From positions 32,664-96,663 of IMG/VR virus record IMGVR_UViG_3300043468_001414: a DNA stretch of 64,000 nt, one strand, 5' to 3'. This DNA comes from a virus. The notes beneath the pieces are model-generated. The model was not told the origin of the DNA and did not search any database. It worked only from the letters and a program-made list of their open reading frames with translations. The position numbers and the translations under genes are program-made. Positions 2,661 to 33,920 of this stretch are shown here, piece by piece (the stretch's first letter is position 1; every line of letters begins with the position of its first letter).

Positions 2661-4343
2661 ATGTTTATTCAGACTCTTGCGGCTATTGATGCGACTCCAG
2701 TTCCAGCCTTGGGGCTTCTGCCCGCCATTCATGATGTGGAAGTTGAGTTGGTTTCTCAATTCAATAATGAAGCCTTGCTTGGAAATATTAAAAATGCAGT
2801 AACTCAAGGAGCGGCGGCTTTGGTTACTGCTGAAATAGTCAGTAAAGAGTTAATTCTTACTGCTAAAAGTGTTGGCGTTTTAAGCATTAGTGCAATTTCT
2901 GAAGGCAATGGAGTTTTGAGCGTCGTATCTACTCAGGCAGGTAAGAATGTCGAGGAGGTGACATTGAGCGTAGCAAATTCAGGGGAAGCGGCTTATGTTA
3001 TTAATGGAGAAAATAATCCAACTCTTTCGTTTGTCCCTGGAAATAAATATACAATTAATGTGAACGCGCCTGGGCATCCGTTTTGGATCCAATCGGTGCC
3101 GGGTGCTTACAGTTCTGCTGCCATTTATTCCGATGGCATTACAGGTAATGGAACGGAGAGCGGGGTTATTGTGTTTGAAGTCCCTGTTAATGCCCCTACG
3201 CTTTATTATGCGGGCCAGTATCATTCCTCGATGAGCGGAAGCATTGGCATGTCAAATCTTGGACTGGGGGCTGGAGTGGCTCAAGTTTCAAAATTAAAGC
3301 TTAGCGGAAATGTCAATGAGGAGGATGTATATAAGATTACTATTGGAGACAATATATACACTATCACTTACGGGTCATATCAGCTCCCGGGGTTTGTGGC
3401 GGCGAAAGGGCGCGTGTTTTTGAATGACACGGGGAAATCCGTAGTTTTGCCAGAGTCTGGCAAGTGGCCGTCCAGATCCCTGCCAGACAGTCAGCTTTGC
3501 GGCGGTGATGGGCGGTTGCTGTATGAGGTGATTCACAAGCCTGGCTCGTCATCTTATTACCCGCAAGTATTTGAAAGAAATATTTATACATTTTCTTTTT
3601 CAGGCGAAACATTTCCTCGTGGAGAAATTTTCGACTTCAGCAGGTTTTTTTATTTTCGTTTGATTGGCAATAATACAACGGCTGTATGGAGTGTGATTTT
3701 TGAGGCTGGAGAAATTCTTTCGCAGACCGCTCCAAGCAAATCCATTTCCAGTGGCGCGACATTGACCTCTGGGCAAAAAACAATTTTCGTTACTCCGGCT
3801 AAGGCTCTTGAGTTGAGCCAATGGATGGTCGTAACAGGGGATGGTGTCTTGGGGGCGGCGATAGGTGATCAGAAAACCTATATTTCTGCTATTAACACGG
3901 AGACGGGGGCGTTGACTTTGACTCAAGCAGCAACAGCCTCCGGTCAAAAGACATTGGTTTTCACGGCGCCGGTAGGTCCAAATATTGAGCGTATTAATTG
4001 GTTGCCGCCACTGATGGAAGAGAAGGTGCATTTAACGGATTTGAAGTCTGTCAGTGCGCTCGGGGTGTGGATCAAGAATCATGGGACCCGTGAAATTGTT
4101 AGGCCAGATGGGGAAATAGAAATAGACCCTAATCGTAATGAGATGGGGTTTGAGGGGTGGCGCTTGGTGTATCAAAAGAGATACCCGATTCCTCATGAAT
4201 GCCTGCCGACTTCTTCGAATTTTGTTATCCGATTGAGGATTGGCCAATTTGATACCGAAAATAGCGTTTCTTCTCCCAAAGGATATGCCGCTTATTTGAT
4301 TAGAGCGGACGAGGAGGATGCGGCATCGGCTGATTCCGCGTAG
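2661..4343 (+). CDS. Virion structural protein with inserted cupredoxin-like and Ig-like segments
   Basis: ATG at 2661 directly after upstream stop; NNPTL..GHPFWI..NAPTLYYxxQYHSSM segment typical of phage tail/baseplate proteins. Confidence 0.6.
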   Translation: MFIQTLAAIDATPVPALGLLPAIHDVEVELVSQFNNEALLGNIKNAVTQGAAALVTAEIVSKELILTAKSVGVLSISAISEGNGVLSVVSTQAGKNVEEVTLSVANSGEAAYVINGENNPTLSFVPGNKYTINVNAPGHPFWIQSVPGAYSSAAIYSDGITGNGTESGVIVFEVPVNAPTLYYAGQYHSSMSGSIGMSNLGLGAGVAQVSKLKLSGNVNEEDVYKITIGDNIYTITYGSYQLPGFVAAKGRVFLNDTGKSVVLPESGKWPSRSLPDSQLCGGDGRLLYEVIHKPGSSSYYPQVFERNIYTFSFSGETFPRGEIFDFSRFFYFRLIGNNTTAVWSVIFEAGEILSQTAPSKSISSGATLTSGQKTIFVTPAKALELSQWMVVTGDGVLGAAIGDQKTYISAINTETGALTLTQAATASGQKTLVFTAPVGPNIERINWLPPLMEEKVHLTDLKSVSALGVWIKNHGTREIVRPDGEIEIDPNRNEMGFEGWRLVYQKRYPIPHECLPTSSNFVIRLRIGQFDTENSVSSPKGYAAYLIRADEEDAASADSA

Positions 4344-4366: not shown

Positions 4367-6508
4367 ATGTCCGATTGGATACGATTTGGTCAAAAAATAG
4401 TAGGCGCTACCAGCAGCCAGGGGCTCGGCCGCAGTGGGGCGATGAGTGGCAATGGGATGCGGATGGCTGTAAGTAGCGGGGGGCTTGTCAGGGTTTATTC
4501 TTACGCTGCGGGTAATTGGACGCAATTGGGCTCAGATTTCGGGGGAACGTGGAACGCGACCGCGCGCCCGATGGCGCTCAATTTTTCAGGCGACCGTATA
4601 ATTTTAGGAAAGCCTTCCTACTACGCGGGTAGTAGTATTTGGCTTGGTGGCTCACTTCAGGTTTACATATATAACGGAAATTCCTGGGAGGAGTATGGAC
4701 AGGAGATTTCTTGGGGTCAGAATCAGAACTCAGGTTTCGGAAATGCTGTTGCCATTAATGCCTCTGGAAATGTTATTGCCACTGGTGTTCCTGGCGCCGT
4801 GACAGGGCAGTTCTCCGCCGGGCTTGTTAAAATTTTTAAATGGGATGGGGCAAATTGGGCTCTTGAAAAAGATATTCAAGTAGCCGGATTGGATGTTTCT
4901 CTGAATGCCGCCGGCGATCGGTTGGCCGCCTCTGCTTCCAGTTCTACCCGAGTTTTTGACAAAAATACCAACAACTGGGGAGCGATAGGGCAAAACTTGA
5001 TTTCTTCGAGTGCTCGAGTCCACTTAAGTGCGGATGGCGCGCGGTGCGCCATTGCAGACAGCGGCGATGTTCGTGTGTTTGGGTTGCTGGATGGGGCTTG
5101 GAGCCAATTAGGGTTTGTCATTCCCGTCGCGAATGCCCGGGCCAGCCTTAATTCTACGGGCGACAGGGTGATGGTGAAAGATGCGACCAAGGCTTCGGTT
5201 TACTCTTTCAATGGGGCAACTTGGAATAAGATCAGTCAAGATTTCCTATTGGATGGAGCAGGTGATCTGGCGTTCGGCGTTGCCATAAACTCTGACGGGG
5301 ATCGAATTGCTGTTGCTTCGCCGAACTCGGATGTCTCTGGAGGTGATTTTGTTGCGGTTGATGCTGGAAGTATTGAAACTTATTTTTCAAATACCCCGGT
5401 GGCTCCTCCAGTCATTACAATCCCTGCGTCCTCGCTGACCTACCCTGTAAATCAGAATTTCACTTACCAACTCGCTGCGACGAACGCGCCTACATCTTGG
5501 AGTTTGAATTCCGGGCAAGCGCTTCCTCCAGGCTTAACGCTCAATCAAGGGACAGGGGAAATTTCGGGGGCCATTTCGCAGCTCGGCACTTGGCAAGTGG
5601 CTTTCTTGGCCAGCAACGCGGGAGGGGGTAGCTCACCTGGAGCCATTACTTTTATCGCTTATAATCCTGGGTCTAATCCTGGGTCTGGGGTTCCTCAAGG
5701 TAATAATCCAGTGATCAGCAAGGCGCAGGGGGTGGTGGCCTACGGGGTTGGGCAGAACTTTATTTTCCAGCTAACAGCGAGCGGCAACCCGAGAGCGTGG
5801 CGATTAGGCGCGGGCCAGTCGTTGCCGCCTGGGGTGGTTTTTAATCCTATCTCTGGCACGCTTTCTGGCGCTGGGGTGGCTCCTGGGGTGTGGGGGCTTA
5901 CTTTCATTGCCACGAATAATAATGGCGATAGTGCGCCGCAGACTTTTACGATCGGGATTTACGATGTGGGTGGCTCGCGGGAATTTTCTAAAAAGGCGCT
6001 GATCAATCTCAAGACCCTTGCGGTGACATTTGAGGATCCGGCGAGTGAGATCAAGGGGGCGAATAACGCTGTCGCCGCGGCAGCGGGCCAAGTGCGCTAT
6101 GGGGATGATATTATTTTCAAGTTGGCGTTTACCGATGGAACGGGCACCGGGCAGGGGGCGAGTTTGATTTACAATGAGGTGGCGGCGCGGGTCGTGATGG
6201 CGCGCTTTTCGATGAAGGGTAATGAGACTGAGGCGGCGTTTTTTGTAACCCCTCCCCCGGCTTTTAAGAAAAGCGCGGAGTATTTGGCGGGGGTTTATTC
6301 TACAAATTATTACTTGAGTGCAAAAATTGCAGGAACTGCATTGCAATCGTATCTTGGGGATTTTGAGAGTGATTCCGGCACATTTGCAAATGCCTTGTGC
6401 GAGTTTGAGTTGGAATTTGAGCGTCCTGCTGCTGCCAGCGGGCCTTTGACGACTCGTGTGACCACGCAACCCTTCCTGCTTCGCGTAAGCAGGGATTTGA
6501 TCTCGTAG
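4367..6508 (+). CDS. Tail-associated protein: FG-GAP-like beta-propeller plus He_PIG-type Ig domains
   Basis: Repeats such as FGNAVAINASGNVIA, W.QLG and LPPGLTLNQGTGEISG. Confidence 0.7.
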   Translation: MSDWIRFGQKIVGATSSQGLGRSGAMSGNGMRMAVSSGGLVRVYSYAAGNWTQLGSDFGGTWNATARPMALNFSGDRIILGKPSYYAGSSIWLGGSLQVYIYNGNSWEEYGQEISWGQNQNSGFGNAVAINASGNVIATGVPGAVTGQFSAGLVKIFKWDGANWALEKDIQVAGLDVSLNAAGDRLAASASSSTRVFDKNTNNWGAIGQNLISSSARVHLSADGARCAIADSGDVRVFGLLDGAWSQLGFVIPVANARASLNSTGDRVMVKDATKASVYSFNGATWNKISQDFLLDGAGDLAFGVAINSDGDRIAVASPNSDVSGGDFVAVDAGSIETYFSNTPVAPPVITIPASSLTYPVNQNFTYQLAATNAPTSWSLNSGQALPPGLTLNQGTGEISGAISQLGTWQVAFLASNAGGGSSPGAITFIAYNPGSNPGSGVPQGNNPVISKAQGVVAYGVGQNFIFQLTASGNPRAWRLGAGQSLPPGVVFNPISGTLSGAGVAPGVWGLTFIATNNNGDSAPQTFTIGIYDVGGSREFSKKALINLKTLAVTFEDPASEIKGANNAVAAAAGQVRYGDDIIFKLAFTDGTGTGQGASLIYNEVAARVVMARFSMKGNETEAAFFVTPPPAFKKSAEYLAGVYSTNYYLSAKIAGTALQSYLGDFESDSGTFANALCEFELEFERPAAASGPLTTRVTTQPFLLRVSRDLIS

Positions 6509-7605: not shown

Positions 7606-8004
7606 ATGAGCGCATTCTCTGATTACCTTGAAAATAAAGTGTTGGATCATCTGATGAGCCGCACGACCTATACGGCTCCGGCCTCCGTTTATTTCTCCCT
7701 GTATACTTCCGCCCCATCGGATACGGGGGGTGGTGCGGAAGTCAATGGCGGCGGGTATGCTCGGGTTGGTGTAACGAATGATGTGGCAAACTGGCCACTG
7801 GCTACTGGTGGAGTAAAGAAAAACGCCAACACCATCACTTTCCCCGAAGCCACTGCGGCTTGGGGGACGGTTGTAGCCATCGGGATTCATGACGCGGCGT
7901 CTGGTGGGAATCTTTTATTTTGGACGACGATTACTTCGCGATCCGTGGTGCAGGGCGATATTCCTCGATTCAATGCCCTGGGCGTCTCGATCAGTTTGAA
8001 TTAA
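7606..8004 (+). CDS. Small conserved tail-associated protein
   Basis: MSAFSDYLENKVLDH..VYFSLYT..GGGYAR..ITFP.AT..WGTV..DA..GGNLL is a widespread phage tail family pattern. Confidence 0.75.
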   Translation: MSAFSDYLENKVLDHLMSRTTYTAPASVYFSLYTSAPSDTGGGAEVNGGGYARVGVTNDVANWPLATGGVKKNANTITFPEATAAWGTVVAIGIHDAASGGNLLFWTTITSRSVVQGDIPRFNALGVSISLN

Positions 8005-8022
8005 AAAAGCTAAAATGATCAG

Positions 8023-8060
8023 GCGCGGGGCATTCGTGAATGCTCCGCGCTTTTATTTTT
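8023..8060 (+). terminator. Rho-independent terminator
   Basis: GCGCGGGGCATTC-GT-GAATGCTCCGCGC followed by TTTTATTTTT. Confidence 0.85.
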
Positions 8061-8071
8061 AAGTAAACACC

Positions 8072-11000
8072 ATGGAACTAACTCTACCATCCGCGGCATT
8101 TGGGGCATACGGTGTTTTAAAGCTTGCGGATGAGCACTGGGAGAGGTTTATCAACTTGGGCGGCGGCGCTCCTATTACGCCAAGTTCTTCCCTTCAAATC
8201 TTTTTGCAGGGGTGTTCTGGAGAGGTGTATTTCCCTAAAAGCATCATATCCGGGAACTATATTTATTCATTGAATGGCTCGGGGCAATTGGTTAGATATG
8301 TTTTATCAACCTTGTCGTTGGATAATTCTTTTACGCCTGTCTATGATGTCAAAGACATGCGGGCGGTTTCTGGTTCTGGTGGCGTGATGCTGCTAAGGGG
8401 GGATGGGAGTGTTGATTTTGTAGGAGGGGCGTCTGATCCATTTGCAAATTCGGCGGTAGGCAAGATCTCTTCAGGGGCGATTGGCATAGTTTCGAATCGT
8501 TACACTTCTCAGGTCGGCGTGCTTAAGTCAGACGGGACTTTAGTTTTTCAGAACGGATATTCGGATGTTAAAGTCTCCGGAGCCTCCTATAATTTCGTAG
8601 CGATTTCCGACGCAAAGGGGAATAATTATGACAGACGAGGTTTTTTTCATGCGATTACCCAAGGGGGGGAAGTTTACGGGGCTAGTTATCCTGACGGAAC
8701 TCTTCGTGAGATATCTTTAAATACTACGCTTTCTGCGGGTGACGACATAGCGACTGCCCAGTTCTTCTCCTACGGCGATTATTCAATTGTTCTTAAAAAC
8801 GGGAGAATTTATGATCCCGATTTTAACCCAGACGCTGATTTCGCGGGCTTGTATTCTCAAGTGTGTTCTGGGAGTGGGTATGTGATTGCGTTAAGGGCAG
8901 ACGGCGTGGTTGTTTGTAAAGGAGATAGTCCCCCCTCGATTCCTTTTGGCTACAACCACTCTTTTATTTCTGTGCGGGATGGATGCTTCACCCGCACTGA
9001 TGGTTCGCAATTTATCTATTCGGCTGCTAAAGGGCAAAATATCCCGGAAGACTTAAAGATTCCGCTTTTTGCAAGAAAATCATCTCCTTCAATACGATAT
9101 GCGGGCTCATTTTATGATTTAGCGGAGGCTGCGGAGGTTTCTTTTGGCCCGGCGGTATCGCCAGGGTTCCGCCCGCAGGCTTTTGCGGTGGCTTCTAACG
9201 TCCCTTCTTCGTCCTTGGTCGCCGGGAATTGGTATCAAATCGCTGTTTCGGGGACTACAAGTTGGACAGGCGCTGGCGCTTCAAGTAATTCCGTTGGAAC
9301 AATATTCAAGGCAACAACGGCGAGGAGCGGGACTGGCACGGCCAATTTATTAAAGTCTGAATTCTCTGATGTTGGGCAATACGAGTTATTGTCCTCAGAC
9401 TACTCTTATTCGCTGGAAAATGTGGTCTTGACGATTACCCCGGGCGTGCCGGTAATCGAGAATCCGACTGCCGCTGGAAAGGTCGGCGTGGCGTTTAGCA
9501 AGTCTTTCTTGACAAACGGAACCAACCGCCCTGTGACTTCGTGGAGCGCGGCTGGGCTGCCTGCGTGGGCGAGCCTTAACTCCTCGACGGGGGTAATCTC
9601 GGGCACCCCGCAGGATGCGGGGGATTATCAATTTCAGCTCACGGCCAGCAGCTCTGTGGGTAGCGATACCGAGCAGGTAACGATTTCTGTGGCGGTGGGT
9701 GCGGCGACCGTTTTGGCGGGTCAGAGCTTCACGGGTAAGGTCGGCGAGGCTTTCTCTGCTCAAGTGGCAATGGATGATGTGGTGGATCGGCCTGCGACAA
9801 GCTGGGCTGCTGGCAGCTTGCCGACCGGGTTGAGCATCAATTCTACTACGGGGGAGATTAGCGGCATACCTACCTCAAAGGGGTCGAAGGTCGCCTCCAT
9901 TTCGGCAAGCGGGCCAGGAGGGAGTTCGCCGCCTGCCAGTGTTTCTTTTGCGATTGCCGAGGGCGTGCCGATCATTACAGCAGGGCAGGTGCTGCGTGGG
10001 TGGGCGGAAGCGGCGTTGGTTAAATCGCCCGCACTCACGGACTCGGCAAATCGCCCCGCGACCTCTTGGAGCGCCTTGGGGCTGCCTGAGTGGGCGGCGC
10101 TGGATGCTGGCACTGGAGTTATTACTGGATCGCCGCAGGAATCGGATATTTATTCGATCGTTGTTACCGCTGAAGGTCCTGGCGGACTCGATACCGAGAC
10201 GGTTCAAATCAAGATCGATCCAGTCTTCGTCGCTAATTTCTCGGGGGAATGTTCTTTGGGGGTAGCTTGGGATAGTCGGCTGGTGGTAGTATTTTCCAGC
10301 GAGGGGACTCTGGATGCTCATTTATCGGAGGGCCCGCAGCTGGTGGTAGTATTTTCCGGCGAGGCGACTCTGGATGCTCATTTATTTGGCGCGGATTCGG
10401 TTTTTGTGGATTTTCAGAGCGCGGGATTTCTGGAGGCCGGGGAGTCTTGGTTATTATATCGGGATTTTGAGCCGAGTTTGCAGGGAGTCTCGAGCATGGA
10501 TGGCAAGTTTATTGCCAGGGATTTGCAGAGGTTTGCATGGGGCGAGTTTGATTTGGCCAAGGATTTCCGAGGGGAGATTTATTTGCATTGCTATACCACC
10601 AGCCATGGTCGCATGACTCCTGCTCCGCTGATAAAGGCGGGGGTGAAATTGTTTAATAGCCGAGTGGAGTCGGAAGCGTATCGCGAGGTCGAGGGGGCTG
10701 AGGGGAGGCCTTTTGATTTGGAATTGCAAGCGGCGGCGGGGGTGTTGAATGGAGTGGTGCCAGTGACGCAATCGAGAGTGCGCGCGGTGTATAATATTTG
10801 GGCTATGCAAGTCCCGCCGCCCGAGTCGCAGGTTCATTTGAGCATTTACTTGAAGAGGCAGGGCTCTGACTGCGCGGCTAAGCTGGAGGAGGTTGCTGAT
10901 TCCGGGTGGCCAGCAGGAAATGCTCGGGAGGTTAAATATGCGGAGTGGGATTTGTGCGGGGATTTGCCGCCTCGCTGTCAGCCTGCGGCGAGCGGGTGGT

Positions 11001-28435: not shown

Positions 28436-28896
28436 TTTCCAGTTTCGCGAACGATAGCGGCTACCCGTGGCCAGGATGCTCGATTGGCTCAGAGGATTTT
28501 GATAAGCTGGATGCGGCTCTCGATTTTGAGAGCACGGGTCGCCGGGCGACGGCGCAAAAGGCTCTGCACTTGATGGTGCGGGGGTCGCATGTCTCGGGCT
28601 TTATATTGCGGCCCGATGACGGGCTCTCGGATGTGGCGATCGTGTGCAATGGCGCTGTGCGCTGGCTGTCTCCTGCGGAGTTTCAGTGGTTGATGCATGA
28701 GAGTCGCTCGCCGATCACCATAGATGCGGAGACTGAAAAGCTGCGTGCCGAAAATGCGAAGCTGCGCGAGGCGGCTCAAGAAGTGGTCTGGAGTTGGGCT
28801 GAGGCCACGGGGCACGAGGATTTGCCGCAATGTCTGATGGTGAGTCGTTCGGCGCTGGAGAGTTCGATGGGGGGATTGGAGGAGGCATTGACATGA
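28432..28896 (+). CDS. Hypothetical protein
   Basis: GGAGG SD, ATGA-coupled. Confidence 0.6.
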   Translation: MISSFANDSGYPWPGCSIGSEDFDKLDAALDFESTGRRATAQKALHLMVRGSHVSGFILRPDDGLSDVAIVCNGAVRWLSPAEFQWLMHESRSPITIDAETEKLRAENAKLREAAQEVVWSWAEATGHEDLPQCLMVSRSALESSMGGLEEALT

Positions 28897-29038
28897 GCGC
28901 GACGGAGAAGACCTACCAGACCTGCCTGCCCCCCGAGGCCTACATGCGCATCGCCAAGGCATGCGCTTCTTCGAAGGGGCCGAGATTGAGATCTTCGGTT
29001 TATCCGAAGACGGCTCAAAAAGCCCAGAAGCCCTCAAA

Positions 29039-29347
29039 ATGAAAAGATCAGACTTAATTAAAAATCTCCGCGCCTACAATAAATGGAGGCGCGGAGATGA
29101 GGCGGCGGTGATGCCAGAGCCTGCGGATATCGGGCGATGGATTGACCAGGCGTGTGATGAGTTGGGCTTTCTCGATGCGGTTCTGGCTGGCGGGGTGGAG
29201 GGCTGGAAAAAGAAGTGGGAATGCGCGGTCACAATGGCTGCCAAGGCAGAAAATCACTGTGAGCGAGTGAAGCGGGAGCGCGACGACTTGCGGGATAGAC
29301 TTAATGACATCCTAAACCAACCGGCGCTGAAATCGTGTAAAAAATAG
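29039..29347 (+). CDS. Hypothetical phage protein
   Basis: YNKWRRG....MP.P..IG..ID family pattern. Confidence 0.6.
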   Translation: MKRSDLIKNLRAYNKWRRGDEAAVMPEPADIGRWIDQACDELGFLDAVLAGGVEGWKKKWECAVTMAAKAENHCERVKRERDDLRDRLNDILNQPALKSCKK

Positions 29348-29359
29348 GGGGGTAAAATC

Positions 29360-30679
29360 GTGGTGGATTCGACTGAAATAAAACAGAGGGTATCTTTGCG
29401 CTCATTACTTGAGCGTGACAATGTGGATGTGCGGCGGGCGGGGGCGAGCTGGGTGGCTTGCTGTCCGATCCATAATGAGGATACGCCTTCCTTTCATTTG
29501 CATGAATCGGCTGGGGGCGATTGGTTTAAGTGCTTTGGCTGTGATGCGAAGGGGGATATCTTCGAATATTGGCAGCAGACTCGGGGCGGAGATTTTAAAA
29601 AGGCTCTGGAGGATTTGGCGGCGATTGCGGGGCTGGGCGGGAAGATTTCGGATTCGGCGAAGCCGCTGCCGAAGCGTGAGGTGCGGGAGGAGGAGGCTCC
29701 TGTGGAGATCGCTCCGCTGGATGCCGAGGCGTTGCTGAAATGGGAGCGGGCGGCGGCGGAGCTTTACACGGATTCTGAGGAAGTGGCGCGGTGGGCGGCA
29801 TGGCGGGGATTGCGGCCTGCGGTGATCGAGTGGGCGGGGCGGCGGGGGTTGTGCGGACGGGCGATGATGTATGGGGAGTGGCGGGAGGCGTTTTTGATCC
29901 GTGATGTGCGGGACGGGGTGGTGCGGGATATGGGATTCCATGTGCGGATCGCTCCGCGCAAGGCAGAGAAGGCGAGCTGGCGCTACTCGAATCGATGGGT
30001 GCAGGGGGAGCGGTTGGAGTGCGAGACTTCGAGGGGGCTGGGGGCATGGCCGTTTGTGATTCTGCCCGAGGGCGGTATCCAAGAGGCGCGTTATATTTTT
30101 TGCTGCGAGGGGCAGTGGGATGCGCTGGCGCTGGTGGATGTGATGGGTTGGGAGGCAAAGTGGCCAGGCGTGGCGGTCTTCGGGATGCGGGGCGCGACGA
30201 GTTGGAAAAAATTTATGGAATATGATCTGAGGAAGGATGCGGTGGCTTTCTTGATGGCAGATAACGACGATGCGGGGCGTGGGTGGTTTGTGGGCGAGCA
30301 GAATTTCGCTGATGAGCTGCGCAAGCGGGTGAGGTCGGTGCACGGGTATTCTCCGGAGGCGAAGGATTTGAATGACGAGGTGCGGGGGATGGATGAGGGG
30401 AAACGGGAAATTTTCCGTGCCTTTTTAAGAACTCGCATCGCCAAGCAAAAGGGGAAGGTGAAGGTGAAGCCGACTTTCCTGCGGTGGCTGGCGGGGGAGA
30501 AGAAAAAGGAGCGCACGGACGGGGTGGTGGAATTCGCGAAGGTGGCGACTCGGCGGGGGGCGGTAGTGCCGAAGGGTAGGCCGAGGAAGCGGGTATGGGT
30601 GAAGTTTGTGCAAGGGGTTTGGCCTGAGCATGAGGCGGCGTTTTTGAAGGCTTGGGGTGAGTGGGAGGCGATCAAGTGA
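29360..30679 (+). CDS. DnaG-like primase (CHC2 zinc finger plus Toprim)
   Basis: CPIHNEDTPSF..FKCFGC..GD; CEGQWDAL; ADNDDAG; KDLND. Confidence 0.9.
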   Translation: MVDSTEIKQRVSLRSLLERDNVDVRRAGASWVACCPIHNEDTPSFHLHESAGGDWFKCFGCDAKGDIFEYWQQTRGGDFKKALEDLAAIAGLGGKISDSAKPLPKREVREEEAPVEIAPLDAEALLKWERAAAELYTDSEEVARWAAWRGLRPAVIEWAGRRGLCGRAMMYGEWREAFLIRDVRDGVVRDMGFHVRIAPRKAEKASWRYSNRWVQGERLECETSRGLGAWPFVILPEGGIQEARYIFCCEGQWDALALVDVMGWEAKWPGVAVFGMRGATSWKKFMEYDLRKDAVAFLMADNDDAGRGWFVGEQNFADELRKRVRSVHGYSPEAKDLNDEVRGMDEGKREIFRAFLRTRIAKQKGKVKVKPTFLRWLAGEKKKERTDGVVEFAKVATRRGAVVPKGRPRKRVWVKFVQGVWPEHEAAFLKAWGEWEAIK

Positions 30680-31179
30680 GCGCGGCGGCGAATGCGATAG
30701 TGCAAGCTGGTGCACAGGGTCTTGGCTTGCATGAGGTGCTGACGGGGGCGATGGCGGCGGAGTTTGGTCCTTTGCCGTTGATTTCGTTGCCGCAGGAGGA
30801 GGCGTTGCTCGTAAAATTCGTAAGGCAGATGGGGATCGTGCTTTCTAATAAGGGGATATATCGCCGTGATTCTGTGGTGGTGATGCCGGATTGGGAGGCT
30901 CATCGCTTGAATATCCTCGAGGCAAAGACCTTTTGCTCTTGGGCGCAGCGCCATGTGGTGAACTACAAACTGCGCTATGATAAGAATGGGGAGCCTTTTA
31001 CGACTTACAAGGATATGCCGACTGAGATCGCGGAGAAGACTCTGACATCGGTTGATTTCCTCCCGCATATACCGGCTATCAAGAAGGTTTTGCCTATTCC
31101 GATGCCAGTGCTGGCTGGCGATGATTTTTCTTTACTGAAATCCGGGTTTGATGCTGGGCGATATACTTTTAAGTTTTAA
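30676..31179 (+). CDS. N-terminal part of a split primase-associated ATPase/helicase
   Basis: GTGA-coupled to primase; ends ..LLKSGFD.., resembling the PGYD segment that normally precedes the FPF/Walker A region found in 32676..33920. Confidence 0.5.
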   Translation: MSAAANAIVQAGAQGLGLHEVLTGAMAAEFGPLPLISLPQEEALLVKFVRQMGIVLSNKGIYRRDSVVVMPDWEAHRLNILEAKTFCSWAQRHVVNYKLRYDKNGEPFTTYKDMPTEIAEKTLTSVDFLPHIPAIKKVLPIPMPVLAGDDFSLLKSGFDAGRYTFKF

Positions 31180-31232
31180 TAATTTATGAAAAATACAGAG
31201 GCGCAGAAACAAAACAAAAAACGAAAAAATAA

Positions 31233-31811
31233 ATGAAAACGATAAAAGTTAAATGGAGTGGCATTCGCCCTCTTGTCATGCACAACGGATTGATGGCTGA
31301 TCCTACCAACCCATTGGTGCGCAGAATTAAAGAAATCACAAGCAAGGGGAGTAAGAAAATGACGGATTCTGATTATGAGGAGCGGGATCGCTTAGAGTGG
31401 GAGGCTGGTTTGTATTGGGATTCGGAAGACGGGCTGATCATGCCCTCCGACAACATCGAGCGCTGCGTGCAGCTCGGGGCGCAGAAGTCTCGAATCGGAA
31501 AAGATGTGCAGGCAGCTGTATTCTGCGCGAATACTCATGTTCCAATTGTTTATGATGGGCCTAAAGATAAAGATAAGCTTTACGATGATCCTCGCTTTTC
31601 TTTGCGGAAGGGCGTGGCGGTGCAAAAGAGCCGAATTATTAGAATTCGGCCAATGATCCCGACTGGCTGGACGATGGCTTTCGACTTGGAGTTTGATGAA
31701 GGCATCGTGAATCCAAAGAATTTGATGAAGGCTATGACGGATGCCGGTTCGCTTGTGGGGCTCGGTGATTGGCGGCCGAAATTTGGTCGGTTCTTAGTCG
31801 AAGAGATTTAA
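31233..31811 (+). CDS. Stand-alone Cas7/RAMP-like protein (putative RNA-guided effector backbone)
   Basis: N-terminal strand I.VKWSGIRPLVMH, central MPSDNIERC, RIRP..GW...F.LEF and C-terminal Gly-rich loop AG..VGLGDWRPKFGRF; 192 aa. Confidence 0.75.
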   Translation: MKTIKVKWSGIRPLVMHNGLMADPTNPLVRRIKEITSKGSKKMTDSDYEERDRLEWEAGLYWDSEDGLIMPSDNIERCVQLGAQKSRIGKDVQAAVFCANTHVPIVYDGPKDKDKLYDDPRFSLRKGVAVQKSRIIRIRPMIPTGWTMAFDLEFDEGIVNPKNLMKAMTDAGSLVGLGDWRPKFGRFLVEEI

Positions 31812-31812
31812 T

Positions 31813-32175
31813 GGCACGATTTCCCATAGCGCGGCTCGGAGGGGCTTGGCAAGGCAAGGCTAGGCACGGCGTGGCAAACACACAGCATCCCTATGGGGGT
31901 GCTGAAGTTTGCTGGGCACGGCTGGGCACGGCGGGGCTCGGCTCGGCAAGGCAAGGCAAGGCAAACACACAGCATCCCATGGGGGTGCTGAAGTTTGCGT
32001 GGCTAGGCTTGGAAAGGCTGGGCCAGGCAAGGCGAGGCAAGGCCTGGCGCGGCAAACACACAGCATCCCGTGGGGTGCTGAAGTTTGCGGCGAGGCAAGG
32101 CACGGAAAGGCTAGGCGAGGTCTGGCCAGGCAAGGCATGGCAAACACACAGCATCCCGTGGGTGCTGAAGTTTGC
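31813..32175 (+). ncRNA. Putative guide-RNA array: four units of (GGC-NN)x9-11 plus a conserved hairpin
   Basis: Phased pentamers; conserved GGCAAACACACAGCATCCC..GGGTGCTGAAGTTTGC at 31873, 31960, 32051 and 32139. Confidence 0.8.
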
Positions 32176-32200
32176 TGAAAAAATAAAAACGAAAGGAAAA

Positions 32201-32674
32201 ATGATGGAAAATACAATAGAAAACATGGAGGTCGTAAGGCTTCCGCTTTGGAAAAACTGCTATGAGGAAATGCTGCGAGATGGAGTGGATTATGGTTCTG
32301 CTTATAGCACGGAGTATTTCGAGGAGAGATTGAAGGTGGGGCGGGACAGCATGGCGTTTGGAATGGATATTTCAAAAATCCGAGCGGCATTGCTCTCGCA
32401 TGGGTATTTTTTGAGCGGTAGAGGCCAAAAGGGGGAACAATTTGTGGTGGTGAGGGCTGCGGCGAATGCAGCTGTGATGGAAAACTTTCAAGCTCAAGCA
32501 ATCAAGGCGTTAAAAGCAGGAGTGATCTTGGGGACGAATACCAAGCTCGATGTGCTGACTGATGAGGAACGGAGGAAGCATGAATCGACGCTGGAGAGGC
32601 TGGCGATTCGCGCGGCCTTGGTTTCAAGAAAAATGCCATTGCTCAAAAAGGCTCTTAATTCTTTAGAATCTTAA
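32201..32674 (+). CDS. Accessory protein of the RAMP/array cassette
   Basis: AAAGGA SD then ATG directly after the array; 157 aa. Confidence 0.7.
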   Translation: MMENTIENMEVVRLPLWKNCYEEMLRDGVDYGSAYSTEYFEERLKVGRDSMAFGMDISKIRAALLSHGYFLSGRGQKGEQFVVVRAAANAAVMENFQAQAIKALKAGVILGTNTKLDVLTDEERRKHESTLERLAIRAALVSRKMPLLKKALNSLES

Positions 32675-32675
32675 T

Positions 32676-33920
32676 ATGAATATGGAAATTAGAAAAACGC
32701 CTGTCAGCGATGACATGCCATACTATGACTGGACTTTGCGGGAAAGCACGACCTACTTGAGGGAGATCTTGCAGGAGTTCCCTTTTGCGGATTGGAAAAC
32801 AGAAATCATTCAAGATGAGGAGGGGGAACTGGAGGTCCGGCAGAGTCGCAGTCAAGCAGTCCAGGTCGCGGCGATGCTGAGCTTGTTTTGCACGGCGATG
32901 TTGCCCGATGGGGCGAATCGTATGGGATTTATCTATAATGCAAATAGTCAGCGGTCTGGCAAGACTTTGCTGGCGAAGTTGGCGATTATGGCGGTCTGTG
33001 GTGTTTTTAAAGCGCAGCCGTGGAAGGGGAACGAAGACGATCTCAATAAAGTGCTGGATTCAGAGATGCTGGCAGGGTCTCTTTATATTTGCTTCGACAA
33101 TGTGAGGGGCTATATGGGGAGTCAGACGCTGGAGGGCTTGATGACGGCTCCGCAGTGGACTGGCCGTGTGCTGGGTAAGACGCAGATGTTCACCGCAGAG
33201 AATCACATGAATCTCTTCATTACGGGGAACGATTGCATTGTATCGCCGGACATGGCGCATCGGTGCTTGATTTGCGATCTTTTTGTGGAGCAGGGTGATG
33301 TGCAGGAGCGACAAGTCAAGAATCTGATCGATGAGGTGTGGTTGATGGATATTGAGAATCGGAGGAATATCCTTTCGGCTTTATGGGGGTTGGCGAAGCA
33401 CTGGAACAAGGCGGGGCGTCCTACTGCTACAAGCCTTGGATTTAAGCCGAGGTTGGGTTTTGAGCGGTGGGGGGATTTGATCGGAGGGATTGTCGGAGCG
33501 GCTGGCTTCGGGAATCCGCTGGAGAAAGTGCAGTTGGAGTCAGCCGGTGACTCTGAGGAGCGGAATATCCATAAGCTGATTGATCGGATGCGGGATATGG
33601 CTTTAGGCGAGAGCCGAGGAGAGTTTAGCTTCCAGCAAGTTGTTGATTTTTGCCACGATGATGGGCTTTTTGATTATATGCTTGATGGAAAGGAGACTCA
33701 AGACGGGTATAAGCTCAATGCGTCTTCAACGAGTAGGTTTGGGTTAACCTTGAATCGATACGCTCCGAAGGTAAGCGGGGGATTTTGCGGAAAAGATGCA
33801 GATAAAACAAGGCCTCCCCGCAAGTATCGCCGAAAGGCAGAGGAAGGGCATGAGGAAGTCGTGGCTTTTGGATGTTTCGGCGATGGCCGTCATCGCCGTT
33901 ATTACATCGAGTGGAAATAG
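32676..33920 (+). CDS. P-loop ATPase/helicase of the replication module (C-terminal part)
   Basis: EFPF, Walker A NSQRSGKT, Walker B CFDN, R.LG, ITGN, D..HR. Confidence 0.8.
   Translation: MNMEIRKTPVSDDMPYYDWTLRESTTYLREILQEFPFADWKTEIIQDEEGELEVRQSRSQAVQVAAMLSLFCTAMLPDGANRMGFIYNANSQRSGKTLLAKLAIMAVCGVFKAQPWKGNEDDLNKVLDSEMLAGSLYICFDNVRGYMGSQTLEGLMTAPQWTGRVLGKTQMFTAENHMNLFITGNDCIVSPDMAHRCLICDLFVEQGDVQERQVKNLIDEVWLMDIENRRNILSALWGLAKHWNKAGRPTATSLGFKPRLGFERWGDLIGGIVGAAGFGNPLEKVQLESAGDSEERNIHKLIDRMRDMALGESRGEFSFQQVVDFCHDDGLFDYMLDGKETQDGYKLNASSTSRFGLTLNRYAPKVSGGFCGKDADKTRPPRKYRRKAEEGHEEVVAFGCFGDGRHRRYYIEWK

What the first reader, a model, noticed from the sequence alone, without database searches (positions are those of the whole stretch)
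31813..32175. Array grammar: constant trinucleotide, variable dinucleotide, four different messages
NN strings read after each GGN (final constant GGCAA excluded): unit 1 from 31833, TC GG TT AA AA TA AC GT (preceded by in-phase degenerate pentamers GGCAC GATTT CCCAT AGCGC); unit 2 from 31915, AC TG AC GG TC TC AA AA AA; unit 3 from 32001, TA TT AA TG CA AA GA AA CT GC; unit 4 from 32089, GA AA AC AA TA GA CT CA AA AT. The closing element pairs GCAAAC/GTTTGC and CAGCATCCC/GGGGTGCTG. Only its apical part varies, giving lengths of 40, 39, 38 and 37 nt. Variation is almost confined to pentamer positions 4-5, which slippage-driven satellites do not produce. That leaves 16-20 informative nt per unit, enough to specify a unique target. 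If one target base is skipped per dinucleotide, recognition in coding DNA could ignore wobble positions (inference). I found no self-target by eye, but that search was not exhaustive.
Basis: partly seen in the sequence, partly recalled or inferred. Interest (0 to 1): 0.9.

Follow-up and report, generated by a model that had tools for sequence, protein, structure and literature searches.

The report
Phage VIPR guide-RNA array (vrRNAs)
This is a four-unit array of VIPR guide RNAs next to its small Cas7-like protein gene in a 96.7-kb phage. VIPR is a CRISPR-related RNA-guided DNA-silencing system first described in 2026 preprints, so this is a real new member of a known kind; what it targets is still unknown.

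Summary
Window 31833-32175 carries four head-to-tail units. Each has 8-10 GGC-NN pentamers, a constant GGCAA and a 37-40 nt hairpin.

GG never varies, C is nearly fixed, and positions 4-5 carry almost no information.

The gene just upstream (31233-31811) is a sequence homologue of the solved "SUSP1 Vipr protein" (PDB 36pp, E 2.4e-32). Its model matches Csm3/Cas7, and the published GGY-contacting residues align with identical residues here.

The hairpin covaries strongly across 23 tails. Its G-U pairs place the RNA on the + strand. Sister phages keep GGC and the tail but carry almost entirely different NN strings.

This is therefore a VIPR locus (bioRxiv 10.64898/2026.04.26.720920 and .720927): vipr, four vrRNAs and an accessory gene.

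I found no target for the four guides. There is no self-target under any gap. Exact IMG/VR scans gave 0, 0, 1 and 20 hits, all at chance level. One sister-phage guide does hit a sister-phage gene, only with a 1-nt skip and in codon phase.

This scan has already filed VIPR loci in at least 33 other genomes.

The parts
31233..31811 (+). vipr gene: 192-aa minimal RAMP (Cas7-like) protein that binds the GGC of each pentamer
31813..31832 (+). Leader between the vipr stop codon and the first clean repeat: degenerate in-phase pentamers GGCAC GATTT CCCAT AGCGC. Role unknown.
   Evidence: Sequence. ATTTCCCATAG is also present at the same place in L002.
31833..31912 (+). vrRNA unit 1: guide tract of 8 GGC-NN pentamers (31833-31872; NN = TC GG TT AA AA TA AC GT) plus 40-nt tail hairpin (31873-31912)
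31913..31998 (+). vrRNA unit 2: TG, then 9 pentamers (31915-31959; NN = AC TG AC GG TC TC AA AA AA), then 39-nt tail (31960-31998)
31999..32088 (+). vrRNA unit 3: GT, then 10 pentamers (32001-32050; NN = TA TT AA TG CA AA GA AA CT GC), then 38-nt tail (32051-32088)
32089..32175 (+). vrRNA unit 4: 10 pentamers (32089-32138; NN = GA AA AC AA TA GA CT CA AA AT) plus 37-nt tail (32139-32175)
32204..32674 (+). vap-like accessory gene, 156 aa (an alternative ATG lies at 32201). N-terminal winged-helix-like domain plus long C-terminal helices.

Best explanation
The array encodes four VIPR guide RNAs (vrRNAs) on the + strand. The system is vipr (31233-31811), the array (31833-32175) and a winged-helix-like accessory gene (32204-32674).

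Inferred by homology to the SUSP1 system: one Vipr protomer binds each pentamer. It sequesters G1, G2 and C3 and presents N4 and N5. The filament of 8-10 protomers is capped at the 3' end by the conserved hairpin.

The exposed NN dinucleotides then pair with a double-stranded DNA target in which every third base is skipped (NNxNNx...). Each guide thus reads 16-20 bases spread over 23-29 bp. In coding DNA this can ignore wobble positions. Binding is expected to silence transcription of a rival phage, satellite or prophage.

Because the units abut with only 0-2 nt between them, and no sigma-70-like promoter is seen, I infer one precursor, probably co-transcribed with vipr, that is cut into about 86-90 nt units.

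Shown here: the grammar, the tail structure, the strand, the protein homology and fold, conserved contact residues, guide turnover among sister phages, and absence of self-targets.

Not shown here: expression, processing, and the identity of the targets.
For: (1) The protein is a sequence homologue of the solved SUSP1 Vipr protein: PDB 36pp, E 2.4e-32; 34% identity, E 1e-41 to the phiSUSP1 ORF. That ORF is flanked by GGT-NN arrays, as is the Felixounavirus wV8 homologue.

(3) Residues reported to hold G1/G2/Y3 and the target backbone in SUSP1 Vipr are H17, K33, R138, D177, W178 and R179. They align with H17, K33, R139, D179, W180 and R181 here. All are invariant or nearly so in the clade.

(4) Repeat grammar in the clade: 253 pentamers from 24 distinct arrays give 1.57/2.00/1.51 bits at positions 1-3 and 0.06/0.05 bits at positions 4-5. 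All 16 dinucleotides are used. Tracts are 9-17 pentamers long.

(5) Tail: 23 distinct tails, 98.8% of cells paired, 7 of 15 pairs with compensatory changes, 0/500 shuffles as good, slid controls 37-50% paired. U-G pairs are frequent (18 of 21 rows at one pair), which would be C-A on the other strand.

(6) Guide turnover: only 1 of 24 arrays is shared between loci, in phages whose Vipr proteins are 77-89% identical to this one.

(7) It is an accessory cassette. The complete sister phage G001 (95 kb) has the same primase and helicase genes but two unrelated small ORFs in this slot and no array.

(8) No self-target under any skip rule, as the preprint reports for VIPR systems.

(9) A sister guide (L002 unit 1, 14 NN) matches a 268-aa ORF of L004 at 24/28 under the 1-nt skip only (20-21 under other skips). 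The skipped base falls at codon position 3, and 0/300 shuffles reach 24.
Against: No target was found for any of the four window guides.
- Exact 1-nt-skip scans of IMG/VR gave 0 (U4), 0 (U3), 1 (U2) and 20 stretches (U1).
- The counts scale as chance predicts, about 16-fold per extra dinucleotide.
- The U2 hit has the skip at codon position 1 and does not extend.
- The U1 hits fall in unrelated genes.

Five related phage genomes and 1.4 Mb of other VIPR-bearing loci gave nothing above shuffles.

Expression and processing are untested, and no promoter-like site was found upstream.

The tail is a simple two-helix hairpin, not the pseudoknot reported for the SUSP1 clade. The accessory protein has no sequence similarity to the Felixounavirus one. 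So details of assembly and of the accessory function may differ.

The sister-guide hit is a single case among about 25 clade guides, and that phage's own copy of the gene also scores 22/28.
Confidence: 0.9

Rival explanations
1. Replication-origin or priming element. The array lies inside the replication module, between a DnaG-type primase and an SF3/D5-like helicase. It could be iterons plus ssDNA hairpins on which the helicase or primase loads, with GGC (or GCC) as repeated primase recognition triplets.
For: Neighbours are a primase (Zn_ribbon_DnaG, E 1e-19) and a DUF5906-like helicase. An AT-rich stretch follows the last hairpin. Hairpins plus direct repeats are typical of origins (general knowledge).
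Against: The complete sister phage G001 keeps the same primase and helicase but lacks the array and vipr altogether. In L003 and L162 the array sits on the other side of the accessory gene. Frequent U-G pairs argue for a + strand RNA rather than duplex DNA. The NN positions are replaced between sister phages, which iterons would not tolerate. The adjacent gene is a Vipr homologue.
Confidence: 0.03
2. A protein-titrating or regulatory RNA without a guide function. The GGC triplets spaced by 2 nt would bind a multimeric protein, as the 11 (G/U)AG triplets of the trp leader bind TRAP or the GGA motifs of CsrB bind CsrA. The NN would be mere spacers, free to drift.
For: A fixed triplet with a free 2-nt spacer, repeated 9-11 times, is the TRAP-site grammar (general knowledge). 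Each pentamer is indeed bound by one protein subunit in the homologous system. No target was found for the four guides.
Against: In the homologous SUSP1 system the NN were shown to dictate DNA target specificity and to be reprogrammable. Contact residues are conserved here. Neutral spacers should diverge gradually between sister phages, yet whole units are replaced while flanks and tails stay alike. A sister guide matches a sister-phage gene in codon phase under the 1-nt skip only.
Confidence: 0.05
3. Slippage-generated pentanucleotide satellite, or part of a protein-coding gene. ORF 31769-32674 runs through the array, and public gene calls extend the downstream protein into it.
For: An open frame of 301 codons spans the array. 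Database versions of the downstream protein are 180-226 aa instead of 156. TRF reports GGCAA runs.
Against: Several frames on both strands are open across the array, simply because it lacks stop codons. Conservation follows a 5-nt period, not a 3-nt one, and unit 2 (86 nt) is not a multiple of 3. Homologues of the downstream protein start at the conserved MEN... N-terminus. Slippage would copy whole pentamers, not keep GGC while randomising positions 4-5. The tail covaries as RNA.
Confidence: 0.01

Closest known systems
Type II VIPR system of Escherichia phage SUSP1 (Vipr, vap1, four vrRNAs); bioRxiv 10.64898/2026.04.26.720920 and 10.64898/2026.04.26.720927; PDB 36pp
   Same: Homologous Vipr protein of about 190 aa (E 2.4e-32) with the GGY-contacting residues conserved. 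Guide RNAs of 8-10 fixed-triplet/NN pentamers plus a conserved structured 3' tail. Two-gene operon with a small accessory gene. Phage-borne. No self-targets.
   Different: - The fixed triplet is GGC here (33 of 37), against GGT in SUSP1 and wV8.
- The tail is a two-helix hairpin with an internal loop, not a pseudoknot.
- Units abut head to tail (0-2 nt apart). In SUSP1 the vrRNAs are separated by about 45 nt of conserved sequence, and one lies upstream of vipr.
- The accessory protein shows no sequence similarity to the Felixounavirus one.
- Only 34% protein identity.
- Which of the seven published types this clade belongs to could not be determined from the text held.
Class 1 CRISPR-Cas crRNP backbone (Cas7/Csm3/Cmr4 filaments on crRNA)
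   Different: - 5-nt rather than 6-nt register.
- Three guide bases are sequestered per unit and only two pair.
- The guide is not contiguous.
- No cas1/cas2, Cas5, Cas6 or large subunit nearby.
- How new guides arise is unknown.
TRAP-trp leader and other triplet-repeat RNA-protein complexes
   Same: A fixed triplet plus a 2-nt spacer repeated about 9-11 times, with one protein subunit per repeat.
   Different: TRAP is an unrelated ring protein, its spacers carry no information, and it regulates its own operon. Here the 'spacers' are the information.

Membership tests
VIPR (Viral Interference Programmable Repeat) system | Vipr protein: a minimal stand-alone RAMP homologous to the described Vipr proteins | tested here: met
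   PDB 36pp_D 'SUSP1 Vipr protein', E 2.4e-32, residues 1-190. BLASTP 34% identity, E 1e-41 to phiSUSP1 ORF.
VIPR (Viral Interference Programmable Repeat) system | Residues that read G1, G2 and Y3 and touch the target backbone (SUSP1 H17, R138, D177, W178, R179, K33) | tested here: met
   They align with H17, R139, D179, W180, R181 and K33. All are invariant or at least 90% conserved in 13 clade members. The Y3-pocket residues E71/M72 align with D73/N74, which is not identical.
VIPR (Viral Interference Programmable Repeat) system | vrRNA: 9-16 tandem GGY/NN pentamers with conserved GGY and hypervariable NN | tested here: met
   There are 8, 9, 10 and 10 guide pentamers, plus a constant GGCAA that enters the tail (9-11 in all). 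Information is 2.0/2.0/1.42 bits at positions 1-3 against 0.17/0.26 at positions 4-5 in the window. In the clade it is 1.57/2.0/1.51 against 0.06/0.05. Three GGA and one GGT depart from GGY/GGC.
VIPR (Viral Interference Programmable Repeat) system | Conserved, structured 3' tail after the repeat tract | tested here: met
   Two-helix hairpin: 98.8% of cells paired, 7 of 15 pairs compensatory, 0/500 shuffles as good. It is present in the MFE fold of each unit. It is a hairpin, not the SUSP1-clade pseudoknot.
VIPR (Viral Interference Programmable Repeat) system | Accessory vap gene next to vipr, with a predicted DNA-interacting domain | tested here: inconclusive
VIPR (Viral Interference Programmable Repeat) system | Guides match natural DNA targets under the 1-nt skip rule (at least 80% of NN positions), with none in the system's own genome | tested here: inconclusive
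   No self-target. No target for the four window guides. Only exact scans of IMG/VR were possible and the host is unknown. One sister guide scores 24/28 under the 1-nt skip only, with the skip at wobble.
VIPR (Viral Interference Programmable Repeat) system | vrRNAs are expressed as ~100-nt RNAs and co-purify with Vipr | not testable with these tools
   This needs small-RNA sequencing and pull-down.
CRISPR-Cas (canonical array plus cas operon) | Adaptation genes cas1/cas2, and identical repeats separating unique contiguous spacers | tested here: not met
   No cas gene families among the ten neighbouring proteins. No PADLOC or NCBIfam hit for vipr. The 'spacers' are GGC-NN tracts.

The most novel reading that the evidence does not exclude
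This freshwater-type phage clade may be a distinct VIPR sub-architecture not covered by the published examples. It would be a CRISPR-like head-to-tail array, in which a simple covarying hairpin (in several interchangeable sequence variants) serves both as 3' cap and as the processing signal of a single precursor. It would pair with a new winged-helix accessory protein. Whole guide units would be swapped between sister phages to target each other's genes downstream of the helicase.
Probability: 0.25. Interest if true: 0.5.

Novelty: new member of a known kind. Interest (0 to 1): 0.3.

Why it matters
VIPR is a newly described RNA-guided DNA-recognition system that reads a gapped code and is proposed to predate CRISPR. 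This locus adds a clean, compact natural example in a complete 96.7-kb phage genome:
- one vipr gene, four guides and one accessory gene;
- GGC-type repeats and a hairpin rather than a pseudoknot cap;
- directly abutting units;
- a complete sister phage that lacks the cassette.

That pairing would let one ask what the system does for the phage and how guide units are exchanged. It does not open a new kind of biology. The scan has already filed the same system in at least 33 other genomes.

A practical point: public gene calls translate part of the array as an N-terminal extension of the accessory protein. That is an annotation error worth knowing about.

Tried and rejected
1. Rfam at gathering thresholds over the whole window: no family, including no hammerhead between units.

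2. blastn of the locus against 50,697 phage records: no match.

3. My first hypotheses were a TRAP-like protein-binding leader, an origin or primase site, and R-loop/G-quadruplex DNA. I dropped them once relatives, covariation and the Vipr homology were in hand.

4. Target searches:
- own genome under 0-3 nt skips with 200 shuffles each: nothing above background;
- 280 guides against 1.37 Mb of fetched loci: the 1-nt skip was not clearly better overall, with mean best fraction 0.758 against 0.746-0.755;
- five related phage records with up to 3 mismatches and full local scans: nothing for the window's guides;
- exact IMG/VR scans for U4, U3, U2 and U1 and for 12 of the 14 NN of the L002 guide: chance-level or nothing.

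5. Host identification failed.
- Genome contigs with the protein alone found nothing.
- With the alignment, the best hit was only a 53% relative in a Lentisphaerales MAG contig, and the rest were 28-44% relatives, mostly in Alphaproteobacteria.
- The MAGs hold no close terminase.
- Kin cannot be drawn for a virus record.

The Atlas could not read the accessory protein.

7. The whole array folded as one RNA pairs arms of neighbouring identical tails. I disregard that fold in favour of the local hairpin supported by covariation.

Full report
**What is there**

Window 31813-32175 lies in the 392-nt gap between a 192-aa gene (31233-31811) and a 156-aa gene (32204-32674), all on the + strand. The window is bases 32664-96663 of a complete 96,663-bp IMG/VR phage record with direct terminal repeats.

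The gap holds four head-to-tail units. Each unit has a tract of GGC-NN pentamers (8, 9, 10 and 10), a constant GGCAA, and a hairpin. The tails are 40, 39, 38 and 37 nt long and differ only in the loop.

The pattern is far beyond chance:
- (GGNNN)x5+GG gives 21 matches, all in the array, against none in 100 shuffles.
- The 5' arm of the tail gives 4 matches against 0.02 expected.
- G1 and G2 never vary, and position 3 is C in 33 of 37 pentamers.
- Positions 4-5 carry 0.17 and 0.26 bits.

**Surroundings**

Upstream lie a DnaG-type primase (29360-30679) and a 172-aa ORF. Downstream lie an SF3/D5-like helicase (32676-33920), a possible small terminase and the large terminase. Because of this setting I first considered an origin or priming element, or a TRAP-like protein-binding RNA.

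**Relatives**

The flanking 192-aa protein (phrog_4652, 528 database homologues) led to related loci in IMG/VR and metagenomes. All that reach far enough downstream carry the same kind of array.

Across nine loci there are 24 distinct guide tracts of 9-17 pentamers:
- Positions 1-3 carry 1.57, 2.00 and 1.51 bits; positions 4-5 carry 0.06 and 0.05 bits.
- All 16 dinucleotides occur.
- Only one tract is shared between two loci.

So the NN strings are neither invariant nor decaying. They are replaced while GGC and the tail are kept.

The tails exist in several sequence variants that keep the same two helices. In an alignment of 23 distinct tails:
- 98.8% of cells form standard pairs, and 7 of 15 pairs show compensatory double changes.
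- None of 500 shuffles does as well, and sliding the partner columns drops pairing to 37-50%.

U-G pairs are frequent, so the structure belongs to a + strand RNA. Each single unit folds into this hairpin in its minimum-energy structure.

**The protein**

By sequence it hits one PDB entry, 36pp, "SUSP1 Vipr protein", at E 2.4e-32 over residues 1-190. It is 34% identical (E 1e-41) to ORF 28474-29061 of phage phiSUSP1. That ORF, like its homologue in phage wV8, is flanked by GGT-NN arrays with conserved tails.

**The literature**

A full-text search found two 2026 bioRxiv preprints. The first, 10.64898/2026.04.26.720920, describes VIPR systems:
- a minimal RAMP protein (Vipr);
- vrRNAs of 9-16 GGY/NN pentamers with a structured 3' tail;
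- an accessory vap gene.

It reports that the NN dinucleotides pair with double-stranded DNA under a 1-nt skip rule. The skipped base usually falls on the codon wobble position. Natural targets are rival phages, satellites and prophages, and guides have no self-targets at >=80% NN match.

The second, 10.64898/2026.04.26.720927, gives the structures. One protomer binds per repeat and sequesters GGY through H17, R138, D177, W178 and R179. K33 contacts the target backbone. In my pairwise alignment these correspond to H17, R139, D179, W180, R181 and K33, which are invariant or nearly so in the clade.

The locus therefore meets every VIPR feature that sequence tools can test.

**Why not an origin**

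The complete sister phage G001 (95,362 bp, helicase 80% identical) has no such array anywhere. Between the homologous 172-aa ORF and helicase genes it carries two unrelated small ORFs. Nucleotide similarity to the window stops at 31045 and resumes at 32680.

So vipr-array-vap is an accessory cassette in a variable slot, not part of the replication machinery. This also corrects a neighbouring first-reader note that the cassette splits one ATPase gene. The two genes are also separate in the VIPR-less sister phage. In L003 and L162 the array lies after the accessory gene rather than before it.

**Targets**

None of the four guides has a match in the phage's own genome above shuffled-order controls under 0, 1, 2 or 3 skipped bases.

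| Guide | Specified bases | Exact 1-nt-skip hits in IMG/VR |
|---|---|---|
| U4 | 20 | 0 |
| U3 | 20 | 0 |
| U2 | 18 | 1 |
| U1 | 16 | 20 stretches (about 15 independent) |

The counts scale by about 16 per dinucleotide, as chance predicts.
- The U2 hit lies in a 218-aa ORF of an unrelated contig of about 60% GC, judged by eye from the ORF translations. The skipped base is at codon position 1 and the match does not extend.
- The U1 hits fall in unrelated genes: a 640-aa ORF, a 255-aa ORF with a Walker-A-like GxxGxGKT motif, and others. I did not annotate either ORF against a family library.

Five related phage genomes and 1.4 Mb of other VIPR-bearing contigs gave nothing for the window's guides.

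One sister guide behaves as the rule predicts. L002 unit 1 (14 NN) matches a 268-aa ORF of L004 at 24 of 28 positions under the 1-nt skip only, against 20-21 for the other skips. The skipped base is at the wobble position, and 0 of 300 shuffles reach 24. L002's own 96%-identical copy of the gene scores 22 of 28, below the published 80% threshold. This is suggestive, not proof.

I could not identify the host, and only exact collection scans were available. The absence of targets is therefore weak evidence.

**The accessory gene**

It has no Pfam, NCBIfam or PHROG family and only a sub-threshold PADLOC hit (SduA/DUF4263, E 0.0013, 16 bits). It has 121 homologues. Its model (pLDDT 71) has a well-predicted N-terminal domain (residues 10-86) that resembles winged-helix DNA-binding domains at middling scores, followed by long helices.

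That fits the preprint's description of DNA-binding vap proteins. However, it shows no sequence similarity to the wV8 accessory protein, and I cannot assign it to vap1-6.

**Differences from the studied SUSP1 system**
- GGC rather than GGT.
- A two-helix hairpin rather than a pseudoknot tail.
- Units that abut with 0-2 nt between them, which suggests one processed precursor. No sigma-70-like promoter was found.
- A different accessory protein.
- All four vrRNAs between vipr and vap, with none upstream of vipr.

Whether these amount to a separate published type could not be decided from the text available.

**Verdict**

This is a genuine VIPR locus, a new member of a kind first described in 2026. 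The targets and the biology in this phage remain open. The scan has already reported VIPR loci in at least 33 other genomes.

Noticed in passing
window 31769-32674; proteins P0121-P0125: Public gene calls give the accessory protein 180-226 aa instead of 156. The array has no stop codons in that frame, so part of the guide array is translated as a false N-terminal extension.
   Followed up: partly
L006 (G001) 3242-3967 versus window 31180-32675: A complete 95-kb sister phage lacks vipr, the array and vap. It has two unrelated small ORFs (106 and 147 aa; phrog_6053 and a weak phrog_20561 hit) in the same slot between the 172-aa ORF and the helicase. This is a natural with/without pair.
   Followed up: partly
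L003 3352-3624 and L162 4068-4348: In these relatives (Vipr 86% identical) the vrRNA array lies downstream of the accessory gene rather than between vipr and it. The two loci share the first unit but differ in the other two.
   Followed up: partly
L002 4601-4709 (guide); L004 5273-5313 (hit) in ORF 4640-5446; L002 own copy 7665-8468: A 14-NN sister-phage guide matches a 268-aa ORF of unknown function at 24/28 under the 1-nt skip only. The ORF lies downstream of the helicase and has no PHROG hit. The skip falls at wobble. The guide-bearing phage's own copy scores 22/28.
   Followed up: yes
Some tracts run up to 43 uninterrupted pentamers (L021). Some arrays are punctuated by short fixed words such as TCA (L022) or CCTCA (L124). 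Many end just before a ribosome-binding site and start codon.
   Followed up: partly
L133 (Escherichia phage wV8, EU877232.1) 2259-2316 and 3652-3709: The GenBank record annotates 'DR_4' repeat regions that coincide with the conserved tails of the GGT-NN arrays flanking the Vipr homologue (gene 95). The repeats were noticed at deposition without a function.
   Followed up: no
window 31873-32175: The four tails are identical except that the loop region shrinks by exactly one base from unit to unit: 40, 39, 38, 37 nt. Relatives mix several different tail variants within one array. This may reflect recent local duplication of one unit type.
   Followed up: no
L181 5912-5937 (-): This is the only exact IMG/VR match to guide U2 under the 1-nt skip. 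It lies in a 218-aa ORF (5834-6490) of an unrelated contig, roughly 60% GC by eye, with the skipped base at codon position 1. It is consistent with chance.
   Followed up: yes
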